From a virus (Duplodnaviria > Heunggongvirae > Uroviricota > Caudoviricetes), in IMG/VR virus record IMGVR_UViG_2563366883_000009: 7,046 nucleotides of DNA; one strand, written 5' to 3'. Below the pieces are notes generated by a model that was not told the origin of the DNA, made no database searches, and worked only from the letters and a program-made list of their open reading frames with translations. Below are positions 1,837 to 7,046 of the stretch, in pieces; within the stretch, counting starts at the first letter, position 1; the number at the start of each line of letters is the position of its first letter. The position numbers and the translations under genes are program-made.

Positions 1837-3114
1837 ATGAATACTGGATATTCTCCCGAACAAGGGCGGGGCTTCGTTCGTCCTGAAAAACAGAATCTGC
1901 AAAATTTTGCCGAAATTATTCCGGTTATTTCCGGCCTTACTGGCGGGAGTGAAACCAATATTGTTAACGCCAGAGCGTTGCAGATGTTTGATGATAAAAA
2001 GGGAGTAAATTTAACTTACACCCCTGACGGCAATCAGAATATGAGCATTATCTCTGAGTCAGGTTTCTACAAACTAATAAAAACAAAAAGCGCCCCGTTG
2101 CCGGAGCGCCTTTGTGAACAATTAACCTACTGCGCAAAAAATGAATCTGAGCAGTGGGATTATATCAACCATGTGGAGAAGCGCCACAATTGCCGAATAA
2201 CGGGCAAAACAAAGGCCACCCGCTACGGTGGCCCCTCGACACAAGCTACACGTTATCCCCAACGCATGAGCATTGCCAACAATGCCACATTTGCGGCTGG
2301 TGGGCAATGCAATCAGTCTGGTTCAGTTCGTTGCCATACCTGCAATGAGCGCTTTTCCCTGTACTCTTTAAGGAATTGCTCAAGGGCAAAAGCACATGGC
2401 GCGAATCTTTCTGATTCATGCTCTATCTTTCTGCGCCGTCTTTTCCGTGCCGGTGATAATGTTTTGGTCAATTCTTTATCGGTCATTGTGTTGTCCTGCA
2501 TAGCAATGCGCCGTAGTTACTCACACCACGGCGCTGGTGATGGTTACTCCTGCTCTTTGGCCTTGCGACGCTGGCGGCGTTTGATCTCACCTTTAACGGC
2601 AGTAACTATAAATTGCGCCTTGCTTTCACCTTCATCTAAATTTTTTTCTAAGTCTGCAACAACATCATGCGGGAATCTGGCATTTAACTGTTGCGACTTA
2701 TTATTTGTTGAACCTGTTGCCATTACTGAATCCTCTCTAAGTTGGTGCGATTCAGTATACACAAAAAAAATTTCAGAGAAAGACTTGAAGTGCGATTCAC
2801 TTACTGATAGGTTAAAAACGAATGGTGCGATGCACCAAACAACAACGCCCCGCAGTGGTGGCACACATGCAGGGCGTCTAACCACCAACGATAGCGAAAG
2901 TATCGAGGTAGCTATGAGAAATCATACCATACACCCGCAAGGGCGGGACTCGCACAACCTGAATAAATACATCTGGCGTTTTATCGCCCTGAGCACGGCA
3001 CAACCGCGCGTGATTACCATTGAGGCCACCAGCGAACAGGAAGCACGCCAGCAATCTCCGGCTGGCTGCGTGATGGTATTTGCTGCCCGTATTCGTCAGG
3101 GGGTAGGCTTATGA
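1837..3114 (+). CDS. Longest open frame (425 aa); probably not one genuine gene. The 5' ~380 nt looks coding-like (weak Bro-N/antirepressor-like stretch NMSIISESGFYKLIKTKSAPL), the middle is antisense to a better-supported minus-strand gene, and the 3' 200 nt is probably the separate small gene 2914-3114
   Basis: No in-frame stop from 1837 to 3114 and no Shine-Dalgarno before the 1837 ATG. First-codon-position composition is purine-rich (coding-like) in 1837-2220 but T-rich (about 44 percent T by hand count) in 2521-2760. The translated middle section is Cys/Ser-rich. Confidence 0.3.
   Translation: MNTGYSPEQGRGFVRPEKQNLQNFAEIIPVISGLTGGSETNIVNARALQMFDDKKGVNLTYTPDGNQNMSIISESGFYKLIKTKSAPLPERLCEQLTYCAKNESEQWDYINHVEKRHNCRITGKTKATRYGGPSTQATRYPQRMSIANNATFAAGGQCNQSGSVRCHTCNERFSLYSLRNCSRAKAHGANLSDSCSIFLRRLFRAGDNVLVNSLSVIVLSCIAMRRSYSHHGAGDGYSCSLALRRWRRLISPLTAVTINCALLSPSSKFFSKSATTSCGNLAFNCCDLLFVEPVAITESSLSWCDSVYTKKISEKDLKCDSLTDRLKTNGAMHQTTTPRSGGTHAGRLTTNDSESIEVAMRNHTIHPQGRDSHNLNKYIWRFIALSTAQPRVITIEATSEQEARQQSPAGCVMVFAARIRQGVGL
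2201..2233 (-). terminator. Candidate rho-independent terminator for the minus-strand module
   Basis: Perfect hairpin GGCCACC-cgctac-GGTGGCC (2214-2233), followed on the minus strand by TTTGTTTTG (complement of plus 2205-2213); lies about 80 nt past the stop of the minus-strand ORF ending at 2313. Confidence 0.45.
2313..2486 (-). CDS. Hypothetical small basic protein (57 aa, MTDKELTKTLSPARKRRRRK...), possible second gene of the minus-strand operon
   Basis: ATG at 2486 preceded by AGGA with 5-nt spacing; the ORF track starts 5 codons earlier at 2501 without an SD. Codon statistics are equivocal and there are several rare Arg codons. Confidence 0.3.
   Translation of the reverse strand: MTDKELTKTLSPARKRRRRKIEHESERFAPCAFALEQFLKEYREKRSLQVWQRTEPD
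2544..2723 (-). CDS. Arc/Mnt-like ribbon-helix-helix DNA-binding protein (59 aa); putative repressor
   Basis: Internal ATG at 2723 of the 2544-2888 minus ORF, preceded by GAGAGGA about 8 nt upstream. Protein LNARFPHDVVADLEKNLDEGESKAQFIVTAVKGEI aligns by eye with the P22 Arc pattern FNLRWPREVLDLVRKVAEENGRSVNSEIYQRV (beta-strand, helix A, G-x-S turn, helix B). First-codon-position composition is G>A>C>T, as in real genes, by hand count. Confidence 0.7.
   Translation of the reverse strand: MATGSTNNKSQQLNARFPHDVVADLEKNLDEGESKAQFIVTAVKGEIKRRQRRKAKEQE
2724..2913. promoter_or_regulatory. Divergent AT-rich control region with three direct repeats GTGCGAT(T/G)CA (2745-2754, 2790-2799, 2825-2834) and a TATACT -10-like element for the minus-strand gene (plus coordinates 2754-2759)
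   Basis: Repeats read directly; copy 1 overlaps the candidate -10/start region of the RHH gene. An inverted pair TGAATC (2727-2732) / GATTCA (2749-2754) flanks the RHH RBS. The -35 assignments are weak. Confidence 0.5.
2914..3114 (+). CDS. Hypothetical small protein (66 aa); likely first gene of the plus-strand operon (alternative model to the 425-aa ORF)
   Basis: ATG at 2914 preceded by GAGGT (2905-2909); coding-like first-position composition (T about 12 percent) and high GC3; stop overlaps the next start in ATGA at 3111-3114. Confidence 0.5.
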   Translation: MRNHTIHPQGRDSHNLNKYIWRFIALSTAQPRVITIEATSEQEARQQSPAGCVMVFAARIRQGVGL

Positions 3115-4367: not shown

Positions 4368-4667
4368 ATGAAACTTAAATATTCTGGCTTAACTGCCAGT
4401 GGCAACACTCACCCTAAATTTACGCGCGGTGATATTTACCGCGACCAGTACGGCGGCACGGTAATGATTAAGGGCGTGGAAGAACGGCGCGTAACCTACC
4501 GCCGTGAAGGTTACGAATATGATTGCGTGATGCCTGTTTATCAGTTCCGGCGTGATTTTTCTCTGGTACAGACCGCGCCGCATAACGTGCCCACCAGCAA
4601 CGCCAGGGCACGGGCAAACATCCAGAAGCTGAAAACCATGATTAACGGATTCAGGGGCAAGAAATGA
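4368..4667 (+). CDS. Hypothetical protein (99 aa)
   Basis: ATG at 4368 with GGAG (4354-4357); stop overlaps the helicase start in ATGA at 4664-4667. Confidence 0.6.
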   Translation: MKLKYSGLTASGNTHPKFTRGDIYRDQYGGTVMIKGVEERRVTYRREGYEYDCVMPVYQFRRDFSLVQTAPHNVPTSNARARANIQKLKTMINGFRGKK

Positions 4668-6064
4668 AAAGCGCACCGAACTTAAAAAAACAGCCTTACG
4701 ACAAGATGACCGAAGTCATTATTTTTGCGGGTAGTGATGCCTGGGCACATGCGAAACAGTGGCAGGAACAGGACGGGCGACTGGCTGGCGATAATGTGCC
4801 TCCCGTTGTGCTGGCTGATGATCAACTGGATGAACTGGCAGACCTGAGAATCATCGACGAGGGGCGCTATTGTGTCCGGCTGTACAAGGCAGGCCACATC
4901 AGGCCATCAAATATTAATGCCATTGCGCACAAGCTGGCGGCGGCGGGTGTAACTGATGCGAATTATTACCCCGAAGGGATGCACAGCCATATGCGGGAGA
5001 ACTGGCGCGAATACCTGGAACGGGTGCGCGGGAAAGAGCCGGCGGAAGAAAAAAACCACCAGCGAAAAACCACGCTACCGATGAGCGTTGGATCTACCGG
5101 ATACGACACGCAACTGGATTACGTGGTTAAGGGGATTATTCCGGCGGTATCGCTATGCAGCATATACGGGGCTAGCGGGTCCTATAAATCATTCCTTGCC
5201 GGATCGTGGGCGTGCCATGTTGCCACTGGTCGCCAGTGGGGAGGCCGCAGGGTTGCACATGGTGCGGTTCTCTATGTGGTTGGTGAAGGCGGTATAGGTG
5301 TTCCGCGTCGTGTAAAAGCCTGGGAGGTTGTGCACGATGAGCAGGTGAAAAATCTGTATCTGGTAAACCGCCCCATCTTTCCGGCTGCCCCGCTTGATGT
5401 TGATGAAATGGTTATCGCTGCCCGTCAGGTGGAGCGGGAAACGGGTAAACCTGTACGCATGATTATTCTGGATACGCTGGCGCGTTGCTTTGGTGGGAAT
5501 GATGAAAATGATTCCCGTGATATGGGGGCGTTTATCCGTGGTTGTGACGAACTGAAACGACGCACAGGGGCCACGGTGCTGGTGGTTCACCATTCCGGCA
5601 AGGATGAGACGAAAGGCGCGCGCGGTTCCAGTGCATTTCGTGCTTCGCTGGATGCTGAATACCGGATACGCAGGGAGGACGCAGGAAGCGAAGCGCTGGT
5701 TATCTCATGCACCAAAATGAAGGACGCGGAGGAACTCAAAGAAGCCGCATATGACTTACGCGTGGTGGAGCTTTTTACCGACGCTGACGGTGAATTAATC
5801 ACGTCGCTGGTGGTGGTGGATGATCCGCGCCCTCCTGTTGAACTGGAGCGCATCGAGGAGGCAGGGAACAAGACGGAAAACCATACCGCGCTATGGGGGT
5901 GCATCCGTTCACGCACACAGAACGGCGACAAGTGCACGATCCCGCTGTTACGTGATGACATGAAAAAGCTGGGGTATGAAATGAAAAACTTCCGGCGCTG
6001 GCTGTACAAGCTGGAAAAAGATGGGGTTATTCGTATCGATGGGGATGATGTAGCGCCGCTATAA
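4664..6064 (+). CDS. Replication protein: RepA/DnaB-like (AAA_25-type) helicase ATPase with an N-terminal toprim-like region (466 aa); satellite/PICI-type primase-helicase module
   Basis: P-loop-like IYGASGSYKSFLAGSWACHVATG, Walker B-like MIILDTLARCFGG and the VLVVHHSGKDETKGARGSSA motif typical of RepA-like helicases. The N-terminal TEVIIFAGSD...VVLADDQLDE stretch is toprim-like by eye only. Translationally coupled to the upstream gene. Confidence 0.9.
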   Translation: MKSAPNLKKQPYDKMTEVIIFAGSDAWAHAKQWQEQDGRLAGDNVPPVVLADDQLDELADLRIIDEGRYCVRLYKAGHIRPSNINAIAHKLAAAGVTDANYYPEGMHSHMRENWREYLERVRGKEPAEEKNHQRKTTLPMSVGSTGYDTQLDYVVKGIIPAVSLCSIYGASGSYKSFLAGSWACHVATGRQWGGRRVAHGAVLYVVGEGGIGVPRRVKAWEVVHDEQVKNLYLVNRPIFPAAPLDVDEMVIAARQVERETGKPVRMIILDTLARCFGGNDENDSRDMGAFIRGCDELKRRTGATVLVVHHSGKDETKGARGSSAFRASLDAEYRIRREDAGSEALVISCTKMKDAEELKEAAYDLRVVELFTDADGELITSLVVVDDPRPPVELERIEEAGNKTENHTALWGCIRSRTQNGDKCTIPLLRDDMKKLGYEMKNFRRWLYKLEKDGVIRIDGDDVAPL

Positions 6065-6255
6065 AAGTGAGGAGCAAAAGCGAGGTGGATAGAAAGAGGG
6101 CCAAAATTAGCCTGCTCTCCCTCACTTTTCTACCTGTATACATCCTCAAAAGTGAGGGGTAAAAAAATACTTATGAAACACACACATAGAAAAACCAAAA
6201 ATCCCAATTGCGACGAAGTGAGACGCTTGAAAAAGTGAGGCGAAAAAGTGAGAGG
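6063..6255. repeat. Iteron-like array of AAAAGTGAGG: perfect copies at 6063-6072, 6148-6157, 6231-6240 and inverted at 6119-6128; degenerate copies at 6077-6086, 6214-6223, 6244-6253; with an A/T-rich spacer at 6160-6205. Candidate replication origin
   Basis: Read directly from sequence, starting at the helicase stop codon. In SaPI-type elements the ori with iterons sits immediately 3' of the rep gene. Confidence 0.55.
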
Positions 6256-6264
6256 TTGCGAGAA

Positions 6265-6516
6265 ATGACCCAAAAACGCAGAGACAGAACAGAGCCGAAA
6301 TATAAGGCGTTAGATATGGCTGAACTGGCTTTAAAGGTGGCAATCAGAACGATAGACCGCCACGCGGGGGAAGGATACGCGAAGGAGCATCCCGAACTGA
6401 TAAGCGCATTCATGACCACAGCGGCGGCAAACTTTGCCACGCTGACAGAAAGGGAGATTTCCGAAGCGGAACAGGTAACAACCATCAACGTTAAAACCGG
6501 AGAGGTGGAAGCATGA
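6265..6516 (+). CDS. Hypothetical small protein (83 aa from the internal ATG; the ORF track starts at TTG 6208 inside the repeat array)
   Basis: ATG at 6265 preceded by GAGAGG (6250-6255); the 6208 start would translate the iteron repeats themselves. Confidence 0.5.
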   Translation: MTQKRRDRTEPKYKALDMAELALKVAIRTIDRHAGEGYAKEHPELISAFMTTAAANFATLTEREISEAEQVTTINVKTGEVEA

Positions 6517-6827: not shown

Positions 6828-7046
6828 ATGACAGCACAAATTGCAGCTTACGGGCGGCTGGTGGAGACAGACAAGGAACGGCATCACATCACGATGCGAC
6901 GGCTGGAATGTTCCAGGAAGGCACAGAGGCCACCGGAGCCGCCGGATAATTACGGAGACCTGAAAAAGGCGGTCGATCGCACTTATGCCGAAATGGGTAT
7001 GGATGGTGCTGGTGATGAAATATGGCGAAATTACCAGGACAGATAA
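6828..7046 (+). CDS. Hypothetical small protein (72 aa), complete; stop is the last codon of the window
   Basis: ATG at 6828 preceded by GAGGTGG (6817-6823); protein-like composition. Confidence 0.6.
   Translation: MTAQIAAYGRLVETDKERHHITMRRLECSRKAQRPPEPPDNYGDLKKAVDRTYAEMGMDGAGDEIWRNYQDR

What the first reader, a model, noticed from the sequence alone, without database searches (positions are those of the whole stretch)
5160..5200. Non-canonical P-loop in the replicative helicase (GASGSYKS rather than GxxxxGK[ST])
The Walker A region reads IYGASGSYKSF, with Tyr where the second conserved Gly normally sits; the Lys-Ser and a Walker B-like hhhhD (MIILD) are intact. This may be a family-specific variant or a weakened ATPase; I cannot tell from sequence alone.
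Basis: seen in the sequence. Interest (0 to 1): 0.35.

Follow-up and report, generated by a model that had tools for sequence, protein, structure and literature searches.

The report
Tyrosine-bearing ATP loop in satellite helicase
The replication helicase of this E. coli phage-satellite island has a tyrosine where ATP-binding loops almost always have a glycine, but this is the normal state of a large branch of phage and satellite helicases, one of which has been shown to unwind DNA with ATP, so it is a family trait and not a defect.

Summary
ORF 4664-6064 (466 aa, Pfam AAA_25, RepA-like RecA fold) reads G169-A-S-G-S-Y174-K-S (nt 5168-5191). Tyr174 (TAT, 5183-5185) aligns to the Gly before the Walker A lysine of RSF1010 RepA. 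No other Walker A candidate exists in the protein.

It is not a lesion of this copy. All 192 close homologues have G[APT]SGSYKSF. Among 140 rows at 31-78% identity the site is Y 47, F 32, G 48, L 7, C 3, A 2, R 1. Every other catalytic residue (K175, S/T176, E208, D270, H309-H310, R320) is invariant in both the aromatic and the Gly groups.

Aromatic-type motors are fused to real primase domains, and one sits in the virulent Salmonella phage Ent1.

Decisive evidence: Lactococcus phage F13 GP46 is an AAA_25 member shown biochemically to be an ATP-dependent 5'-3' helicase. It reads A-P-F-K-S-F48-K49-S, and F48 aligns to Y174. T4 UvsX, an active RecA-fold ATPase with a solved structure, reads GPSKSFKS.

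Verdict: this is an ordinary, probably active family variant in the Rep helicase of an EcCIEDL933-like capsid-forming PICI. The variant itself went unremarked in the literature I could search and merits a biochemist's look.

The parts
4664..6064 (+). rep gene: 466-aa RepA-like (AAA_25) initiator-helicase of a cf-PICI; its ATG overlaps the stop of the upstream DUF4222 gene
   Evidence: ORF list. Pfam AAA_25 2.4e-43. phrog_2850 matches full length at 5.7e-267. The orthologue in E. coli O157:H7 is annotated 'helicase RepA family protein' and is 94% identical.
4664..5038 (+). N-terminal module (aa 1-125), shared with Rep proteins that carry unrelated motors
   Evidence: 62% identical to aa 1-125 of EcCICFT073 Pri-Rep, whose remainder is D5_N/DUF5906/Pox_D5. 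Also found in front of DUF927 proteins. AF2 pLDDT mostly 70-90.
5105..5608 (+). AAA_25 / RecA-fold ATPase core (aa 148-315 matched by Pfam)
   Evidence: AF2 model of aa 130-466: pLDDT 81.5, pTM 0.72. Best Foldseek PDB matches are Rad51 and KaiC.
5168..5191 (+). Walker A / P-loop G169-A-S-G-S-Y-K-S176
   Evidence: Aligned to RepA SPGGAGKS.
5183..5185 (+). Tyr174 codon (TAT) at Walker A position 6, where canonical loops have Gly
   Evidence: Column counts Y47/F32/G48/L7/C3/A2/R1.
5285..5287 (+). Glu208, motif H1a catalytic glutamate
   Evidence: Invariant in 79/79 aromatic and 48/48 Gly rows. Aligns to the Glu of RepA 'PAED' and to Glu82 of GP46.
5459..5473 (+). Walker B M-I-I-L-D270
   Evidence: D270 and T271 are invariant. 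Aligns to RepA MVLD and to GP46 Asp136.
5588..5593 (+). His309-His310, motif H3 sensor
   Evidence: Invariant. Aligns to RepA LHH and to GP46 His177.
5621..5623 (+). Arg320, probable arginine finger (ARGSS)
   Evidence: 79/79 and 47/48. Aligns to RepA 'ASRGSSVL'.
5861..6061 (+). C-terminal helical/winged-helix-like domain (aa ~400-466), probable origin reader
   Evidence: AF2 pLDDT 82-93, with H-H-H then two short strands. The function is inferred.
6060..6255 (.). Iteron cluster: seven copies of AAAAGTGAGG-like repeats in both orientations around an A/T-rich spacer; probable ori
   Evidence: The layout matches the PICI ori described in PMC6092414.

Best explanation
The gene encodes the Rep initiator-helicase of an EcCIEDL933-like capsid-forming PICI. 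It has three parts: a portable N-terminal module, a RepA/AAA_25 RecA-fold motor, and a C-terminal DNA-binding domain that probably reads the iterons just 3' of the gene. Its P-loop belongs to a natural variant class, G-x-S-G-x-[Y/F]-K-[S/T]-F. In this class a bulky hydrophobic, usually aromatic, residue replaces the Gly at Walker A position 6. The motor most likely still binds and hydrolyses ATP at subunit interfaces and works as a ring helicase. The Lys and Ser/Thr of the loop, the catalytic Glu, the Walker B Asp, the sensor His and the Arg finger are all retained. Tyr and Phe are interchangeable and Leu, Met and Cys also occur. The side chain therefore acts through bulk or hydrophobic packing next to the nucleotide pocket or subunit interface, not through its hydroxyl. 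Shown here: the motif, its conservation, the intact catalytic set, and the existence of biochemically active enzymes with the same substitution. Inferred: that this particular protein is active, that it forms hexamers, and where the ring packs.
For: (1) Tyr174 sits on the Gly of RepA's GK. (2) 192/192 close homologues keep Y. In 50%-identity cluster representatives the site is Y47/F32 against G48, with L7/C3/A2/R1. (3) K175, S/T176, E208, D270, T271, E281-N282, H309-H310, R320-G321, D330, K351 and K353 are invariant or nearly so in both the aromatic (n=79) and the Gly (n=48) groups. (4) The tree has a 99%-supported split into an 84-row clade (72 aromatic, 4 G) and a 55-row clade (43 G, 7 aromatic). 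It needs at least 14 G/non-G changes, of which at least 9 are forced by well-supported branches. The two states therefore interconvert on one scaffold. (5) Aromatic-type motors are fused to Zn-ribbon+Toprim primases, to Prim-Pol+PriCT_2 and to the DnaB N-terminal domain. (6) Salmonella phage Ent1 gp43, annotated 'replicative helicase-primase', reads GESGTYKSF, and Vibrio phage 1246 reads GATGTFKTF. (7) F13 GP46 is Pfam AAA_25 at 5.1e-22. Its Walker A is APFKSF48K49S. hhalign at 96.8% probability aligns F48/K49/E82/D136/H177 to Y174/K175/E208/D270/H310. The purified protein unwinds DNA 5'-3' only with ATP/Mg (PMC8965321). (8) T4 UvsX reads GPSKSF65K66S. It is an ssDNA-dependent ATPase (PMC3016280), its Walker A mutant loses recombination (PMC2896510), and its structure is solved (3IO5). 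(9) EcCIEDL933, of which the L001 island looks like a copy (same host serotype, site and architecture; identity with EcCIEDL933 inferred), replicates on helper induction (bioRxiv 10.1101/2022.09.08.507074). The L001 Rep carries the same GASGSYKS and is 94% identical.
Against: No ATPase or helicase assay exists for this protein or any close (>50% identity) relative. GP46 and UvsX carry Phe in a KSFKS context, not SGSYKS, and are distant relatives. GP46 needed 5 mM ATP for full unwinding, which would fit a lowered nucleotide affinity. Position 6 is reported as alpha-L and 'exclusively Gly' in a PDB-wide survey (PMC11959459), so some cost or re-shaping of the loop is expected. AF2 models beta1 and the P-loop with low confidence (pLDDT 52-73) while the rest of the core exceeds 90. 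The published rep-ori replication test for E. coli PICIs used EcCICFT073, whose motor is a D5/SF3 type, so it does not cover this motor.
Confidence: 0.85

Rival explanations
1. The aromatic residue changes how the nucleotide is handled: lower affinity, different NTP preference, tighter coupling to the neighbouring subunit, or further hydrolysis of ADP as in UvsX. On this reading the Y/F-type motors are a functionally distinct subclass rather than a neutral variant.
For: An aromatic is strongly preferred (79 Y/F against 13 other non-Gly), which suggests selection for the ring and not mere tolerance. UvsX, with F65, uniquely yields both ADP and AMP (PMC3016280). Phe65 lies in a surface patch with Tyr99 at the ATP site (PMC10144138). 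GP46 has a 5 mM ATP optimum. Ser173, Arg337 and Thr304 weakly track the aromatic state.
Against: G and Y/F interconvert at least 9-14 times within one family, with no significant compensating site: at most about 4.5 of 7 independent pairs go the same way. This argues for near-equivalence. No kinetic comparison exists. The link between F65 and AMP production in UvsX is untested.
Confidence: 0.15
2. The ATPase is crippled and the protein acts only as an origin-binding initiator that recruits the host DnaB helicase.
For: A non-Gly residue at the alpha-L position 6 is expected to strain the phosphate nest (PMC11959459). The protein has an origin-reader-like C-terminal domain and adjacent iterons.
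Against: All catalytic residues, including the trans-acting Arg, are as invariant in the aromatic group as in the Gly group. Dead ATPases usually lose these. There are fusions to primases. The variant occurs in a virulent phage protein annotated as a replicative helicase-primase. An aromatic-type relative is an active ATP-dependent helicase.
Confidence: 0.07
3. Tyr174 is a regulatory or catalytic hydroxyl, for example a phosphorylation or nucleotidylation site that gates ATP binding.
For: Tyr is strictly kept in all 192 enterobacterial relatives.
Against: Phe is nearly as common as Tyr across the clade (32 against 47). Leu, Met and Cys also occur, so the hydroxyl cannot be essential.
Confidence: 0.03
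4. The Tyr is a mutation or sequencing error peculiar to this copy.
For: None.
Against: The motif is identical in every homologue examined. The island is found in 1,882 of 5,426 complete E. coli genomes.
Confidence: 0

Closest known systems
GP46 of Lactococcus phage vB_Llc_bIBBF13 (F13), an ATP-dependent 5'-3' DNA helicase (PMC8965321; ATW69819.1)
   Same: It is a Pfam AAA_25, RepA-cluster RecA-fold motor. It has an aromatic residue (Phe48) directly before the Walker A Lys49. The Glu, Asp and His motifs align to E208, D270 and H310. It is phage-encoded and replication-associated.
   Different: It is only about 19% identical over 195 aligned columns. Its loop reads APFKSFKS, with Lys rather than Gly at position 4. 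It is a stand-alone 298-aa protein with no N-terminal module and no C-terminal origin-binding domain. According to the paper its Arg finger is placed differently (Arg233).
RepA of plasmid RSF1010 (PDB 1g8y, 1nlf, 1olo), a hexameric 5'-3' replicative helicase
   Same: It is the only solved structure detectable by sequence (E 6e-10 with a profile). It shares the same order of motifs: Walker A, H1a Glu, Walker B, H3 His, and Arg in 'RGSS'.
   Different: RepA has the canonical GK (SPGGAGKS). It lacks both extra domains and is loaded by a separate initiator, RepC. This protein probably reads its own origin.
T4 UvsX recombinase (PDB 3IO5)
   Same: It is a RecA-fold ATPase whose Walker A, GPSKSFKS, has Phe65 at position 6. 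It is active, and its Walker A is needed in vivo.
   Different: It is a filament-forming recombinase of the RecA family (Pfam RecA plus T4_UVSX_C), not a ring helicase. The similarity to AAA_25 is only at superfamily level (hhalign probability 1.8%), so the shared aromatic is probably convergent.
Pri-Rep plus ori replicon of E. coli PICIs (EcCICFT073; Fillol-Salom 2018, PMC6092414) and the cf-PICI EcCIEDL933
   Same: The position in the island is the same: after the DUF4222 gene and before the ori iterons, ssb and perC. The N-terminal 125 aa are shared at 62% identity. The insertion site is the same, roxA-phoQ.
   Different: The EcCICFT073 motor is D5_N/DUF5906/Pox_D5 (SF3, P4-alpha-like), not AAA_25. 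The experimentally validated rep-ori function therefore concerns another motor type.

Membership tests
Pfam AAA_25 / RepA-like RecA-fold (SF4-type) helicases | Profile match above the curated threshold | tested here: met
   PF13481 at 148.5 bits against a cut-off of 27, aa 148-315.
Pfam AAA_25 / RepA-like RecA-fold (SF4-type) helicases | Walker A Lys plus Ser/Thr, motif H1a Glu, Walker B Asp, motif H3 His, Arg finger | tested here: met
   K175, S176, E208, D270, H309/H310 and R320 align to the RepA and GP46 catalytic residues and are invariant in the family.
Pfam AAA_25 / RepA-like RecA-fold (SF4-type) helicases | RecA-like alpha/beta fold | tested here: met
   AF2 model pLDDT 81.5, pTM 0.72. 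Foldseek top hits are Rad51 and KaiC at probability 1.00 and TM about 0.42. The P-loop region itself has low confidence.
Pfam AAA_25 / RepA-like RecA-fold (SF4-type) helicases | Hexamer formation and NTP-driven 5'-3' unwinding | not testable with these tools
   Needs purified protein. Shown only for the distant relatives RepA and GP46.
Canonical Walker A (PROSITE-type [AG]-x4-G-K-[ST]) | Gly at position 6, immediately before the Lys | tested here: not met
   The loop is GASGSYKS and the protein has no match to the pattern anywhere. The position is described as exclusively Gly in PDB P-loops (PMC11959459).
Capsid-forming PICI (EcCIEDL933 type) replication module | int-alpA-early operon-rep-ori followed by ssb/perC and an HK97-type capsid/portal/terminase module, inserted at roxA-phoQ | tested here: met
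   The window is 96.9% identical over its full length to the island in E. coli O157:H7 F6321, which has this architecture. The packaging half lies outside the window.
Capsid-forming PICI (EcCIEDL933 type) replication module | [quoted passage not shown] | tested here: met
   Seven AAAAGTGAGG-like repeats at 6060-6255 around an A/T-rich stretch. Layout as in PMC6092414 Fig. 2 legend.
Capsid-forming PICI (EcCIEDL933 type) replication module | Rep-dependent autonomous replication | not testable with these tools
   Published only for EcCICFT073, which has a different motor. EcCIEDL933 replication on induction is reported, but the dependence on rep was not read.
P4 alpha / D5-type (SF3) primase-helicase | D5_N, DUF5906 or Pox_D5 domains | tested here: not met
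   No such Pfam hit for this protein. They are present in EcCICFT073 Pri-Rep.

The most novel reading that the evidence does not exclude
Walker A loops with a bulky hydrophobic, usually aromatic, residue at position 6 ([YF]K[ST]) define an unrecognised natural subclass of active RecA-fold motors. The subclass would include a large clade of phage, satellite and primase-fused AAA_25 helicases, Lactococcus phage GP46 and T4 UvsX. In these proteins the phosphate nest is re-shaped or strained, and the ring lines the nucleotide pocket or subunit interface. That would alter nucleotide affinity, product spectrum (compare UvsX's ADP+AMP) or inter-subunit coupling. It would overturn the view that this glycine is indispensable.
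Probability: 0.18. Interest if true: 0.65.

Novelty: new member of a known kind. Interest (0 to 1): 0.38.

Why it matters
For annotation, motif scanners and human readers that demand GxxxxGK[ST] will wrongly flag thousands of phage and satellite replication helicases as degenerate, and this case shows they should not. For enzymology, position 6 of the Walker A loop is treated as an obligatory alpha-L glycine. A large natural family toggles between Gly and Tyr/Phe with all other catalytic residues fixed, and it includes at least one biochemically active member. That offers a ready-made system to ask what this glycine is for. For satellite biology, E. coli PICIs place unrelated motors (AAA_25 here, D5/SF3 in EcCICFT073) behind the same N-terminal module. 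Published replication tests on one motor therefore do not automatically transfer to the other.

Tried and rejected
- **Alternative P-loop elsewhere in the protein:** none found.
- **Copy-specific mutation:** rejected.
- **Solved structure of a Y/F-type AAA_25 protein:** none detectable. Only RepA, which has Gly, was found by phmmer or by profile.
- **Compensating substitutions:** a tree-aware scan of all core columns gave only 7 independent pairs. Nothing went beyond about 4.5 of 7 in the same direction (S173, R337, T304), which is not significant.
- **AF2 with a shallow alignment (37 sequences, 59-94% identity):** the ATPase core came out unusable, with pLDDT below 50.
- **Second AF2 run (59 sequences, aa 130-466):** a good core, but beta1 and the P-loop stayed at pLDDT 52-73. 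No coordinates are returned, so the phi/psi and packing of Tyr174 could not be read.
- **EcCICFT073 rep-ori experiments as functional evidence:** rejected, because that Pri-Rep shares only the N-terminal 125 aa and has a D5-type motor.
- **Mycobacteriophage primase/helicases (best phage hits, 34% identity):** Pops has a canonical GIGKS loop, so it is uninformative.
- **Literature string searches for SGSYKS, GSYKSF, GPSKSFKS and SGSFKS:** no paper found.
- **The window's own genome:** not held.
- **hhalign of the family profile against T4 UvsX:** aligns F65 to Y174, but at 1.8% probability. I use it only as a motif-level parallel.

Full report
**Observation**

The window's ORF 4664-6064 (+) encodes a 466-aa protein containing ...SLCSIYGASGSYKSFLAG.... 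GASGSYKS is aa 169-176, nt 5168-5191. Tyr174 is codon TAT at 5183-5185, inside the reported 5160-5200.

Pfam places aa 148-315 in AAA_25 (2.4e-43). The only solved relative detectable by sequence is the RSF1010 RepA helicase, at E 0.005 with the single sequence and 6e-10 with a 46-sequence profile. Both alignments put GASGSYKS on RepA's SPGGAGKS. Tyr174 therefore occupies the Gly that precedes the Walker A lysine, which is position 6 of GxxGxGK[ST].

MIILD (aa 266-270) aligns to RepA's Walker B. VGEG aligns to the motif-H1a Glu. VHHSGK aligns to the H3 His. ARGSS aligns to RepA's RGSS arginine. No other [AG]x4GK[ST] or plausible P-loop exists in the protein.

**Context**

The window is 96.9% identical over its whole length to an island in E. 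coli O157:H7 strain F6321. That island lies between roxA and phoQ. Its gene order is:
- int, alpA, a small antisense RHH-type gene, and an Icd-like gene;
- five small genes, a DUF4222 gene, then this 'helicase RepA family protein';
- two small genes, ssb and perC;
- an HK97-type capsid, protease, portal, connectors, HNH, TerS and TerL.

This is the architecture published for the capsid-forming PICI EcCIEDL933, which replicates after helper-phage induction (bioRxiv 10.1101/2022.09.08.507074). That the F6321 island is a copy of EcCIEDL933 is my inference from host serotype, site and architecture. Related DNA occurs in 1,882 of 5,426 complete E. coli genomes.

Directly 3' of the gene (6060-6255) lie seven AAAAGTGAGG-like repeats in both orientations around an A/T-rich stretch. 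This is the iteron/AT-rich layout described for PICI origins (PMC6092414). The protein is therefore the island's Rep, in three parts:
- an N-terminal module (aa 1-125);
- the RecA-fold motor;
- a confidently modelled C-terminal helical/winged-helix-like domain (aa ~400-466).

**Is the Tyr a defect of this copy?**

It is not. All 120 nearest homologues (58-95% identity) and all 192 homologues from two searches carry G[APT]SGSYKSF.

I aligned 140 rows: the query, a RepA fragment and 138 representatives of 50%-identity clusters at 31-78% identity. In these rows the position is Y 47, F 32, G 48, L 7, C 3, A 2 and R 1.

A maximum-likelihood tree, built with the P-loop columns removed, has a 99%-supported split. 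One side is an 84-row clade (72 aromatic, 8 L/C/R, 4 G). The other is a 55-row clade (43 G, 7 aromatic, 5 A/C/L). At least 14 G/non-G changes are needed, and at least 9 of these are forced by well-supported branches. This was a quick search with SH-aLRT support only, and the tree is unrooted, so direction of change is unknown.

Gly (GGN) to Tyr or Phe needs two base changes. Cys and Arg, which are observed rarely, are single-step intermediates. That last point is inference from the genetic code.

Phage relatives extend the range:
- Ent1 gp43: GESGTYKSF
- Vibrio phage 1246: GATGTFKTF
- Klebsiella phage IME279: GESGAKKTF
- ThreeRngTarjay: GRWGTSKSF
- Pops: GPPGIGKS

**Is the ATP site otherwise intact?**

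It is. I compared the 79 aromatic rows with the 48 Gly rows. K175, E208, D270, T271, E281, H309, H310 and G321 are invariant in both groups. R320, N282, K351 and D330 fail in at most one or two rows. S/T176 is always Ser or Thr. K353 is Lys in all filled aromatic rows and Lys or Arg in the Gly rows.

A dead ATPase would not be expected to hold its trans-acting arginine and catalytic glutamate this tightly.

Aromatic-type motors are also fused to bona fide primase domains: Zn-ribbon+Toprim, Prim-Pol+PriCT_2, and the DnaB N-terminal domain. One sits in the Ent1 protein annotated 'replicative helicase-primase'; Ent1 is a virulent Salmonella phage.

**Characterised enzymes with the same substitution**

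(a) Lactococcus phage F13 GP46.
- I read it from MG253653. It is 298 aa with ...ILVA43-P-F-K-S-F48-K49-S50...
- It scores as AAA_25 (5.1e-22).
- A profile-profile alignment (96.8% probability, E 2.7e-10) puts F48, K49, E82, D136 and H177 on Y174, K175, E208, D270 and H310.
- These are the residues that Chmielewska-Jeznach et al. name as catalytic.
- The same authors show with purified protein that unwinding is 5'-3' and requires ATP and Mg (PMC8965321).
- The paper never mentions Phe48 or the missing glycine.
- The homologue in phage p2 reads GSEKSMKS, with Met at position 6.

(b) T4 UvsX.
- I read it from NC_000866. It has GPSKSF65K66S.
- It is a vigorous ssDNA-dependent ATPase that produces both ADP and AMP (PMC3016280).
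- Its Walker A is needed for recombination in vivo (PMC2896510).
- Its structure is solved (3IO5).
- Phe65 is described as part of a surface patch with Tyr99 at the ATP site (PMC10144138).

An aromatic residue at position 6 is therefore compatible with ATP-driven work in RecA-fold motors, including one member of this Pfam family.

**How unusual is it?**

A recent survey of PDB P-loops states that positions 4-7 alternate between alpha-L and alpha-R. It also states that the alpha-L position 6 is 'exclusively' Gly (PMC11959459). The variant is therefore a real departure from the textbook motif.

I found no paper containing these loop strings. AlphaFold2 reflects the oddity. With 59 sequences the core is modelled at pLDDT above 90, but beta1 and the P-loop reach only 52-73. 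The fold search returns Rad51 and KaiC, that is, the RecA fold.

Tyr and Phe (and Leu, Met, Cys) interchange, so the hydroxyl cannot be essential. The residue most likely contributes bulk or hydrophobic packing beside the nucleotide pocket or subunit interface. This is inference.

A tree-aware covariation scan found no significant compensating site. Ser173, Arg337 and Thr304 track the aromatic state only weakly.

**What does not transfer**

The published proof that an E. coli PICI rep-ori drives replication used EcCICFT073 (PMC6092414). I fetched that island. Its 584-aa Pri-Rep shares only the first 125 aa with this protein, at 62% identity. Its motor is D5_N/DUF5906/Pox_D5. That experiment therefore says nothing about the AAA_25 motor. 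It does show that the N-terminal module is portable.

**Verdict**

The motif is real and correctly read. It is the normal state of a large clade, and the catalytic machinery is intact. Biochemically active enzymes share the substitution.

For this window the feature is ordinary. As a class-level deviation from an 'invariant' glycine it deserves a modest experimental follow-up.

Several earlier notes of this scan reached the same reading in other genomes. I treated them as leads only. I tested the UvsX lead from one of them directly. None of the notes shown to me cites the GP46 evidence.

Noticed in passing
window 6828-7046: The last ORF is an in-frame chimera. The first 12 codons of the island's ssb gene (MTAQIAAYGRLV) are joined to the last 60 codons of perC (ETDKERHH...). 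Relative to the O157:H7 island (L001) about 462 bp are missing, and the two alignment pieces overlap by 15 bp, which suggests a deletion between short repeats. This copy therefore lacks ssb and has a truncated PerC.
   Followed up: partly
L008:12241-13992 (E. coli CFT073, EcCICFT073): The experimentally studied EcCICFT073 Pri-Rep shares only its N-terminal 125 aa (62% identity) with this Rep. It carries a D5_N/DUF5906/Pox_D5 motor instead of AAA_25. E. coli PICIs at the same roxA-phoQ site swap whole helicase motors behind a common N-terminal module.
   Followed up: partly
L009:23083-24032 (Lactococcus phage sk1, NC_001835): The old sk1 record splits the GP46-type helicase into ORF44 and ORF43 by a 1-nt frameshift exactly inside the Walker A (...ITGSERV* / MKSS...). 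The re-sequenced SK1 (PP906167.1) matches 951 bases of record against 950 of the query, and phage p2 has one 316-aa gene. This is probably a sequencing error in the 1997 record.
   Followed up: partly
L006 (Klebsiella phage IME279 gp01) and L007 (Mycobacterium phage ThreeRngTarjay gp143): Other AAA_25 phage proteins carry Lys (GESGAKKTF) or Ser (GRWGTSKSF) at Walker A position 6. The site is broadly relaxed in this family, not only toward aromatics.
   Followed up: no
window 1837-3114: A 425-codon open frame on the + strand runs antisense across the small minus-strand genes (62 aa at 2313-2501; YlcI/YnfO-like at 2544-2888) and into the Icd-like gene. The RefSeq annotation of the O157:H7 island calls only the small genes.
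   Followed up: no
window 6060-6255: Seven AAAAGTGAGG-like iterons (6063, 6075, 6120 reversed, 6148, 6216, 6231, 6244) flank an A/T-rich stretch at about 6160-6200. The last three lie inside the start of the next ORF (6208-6516).
   Followed up: partly
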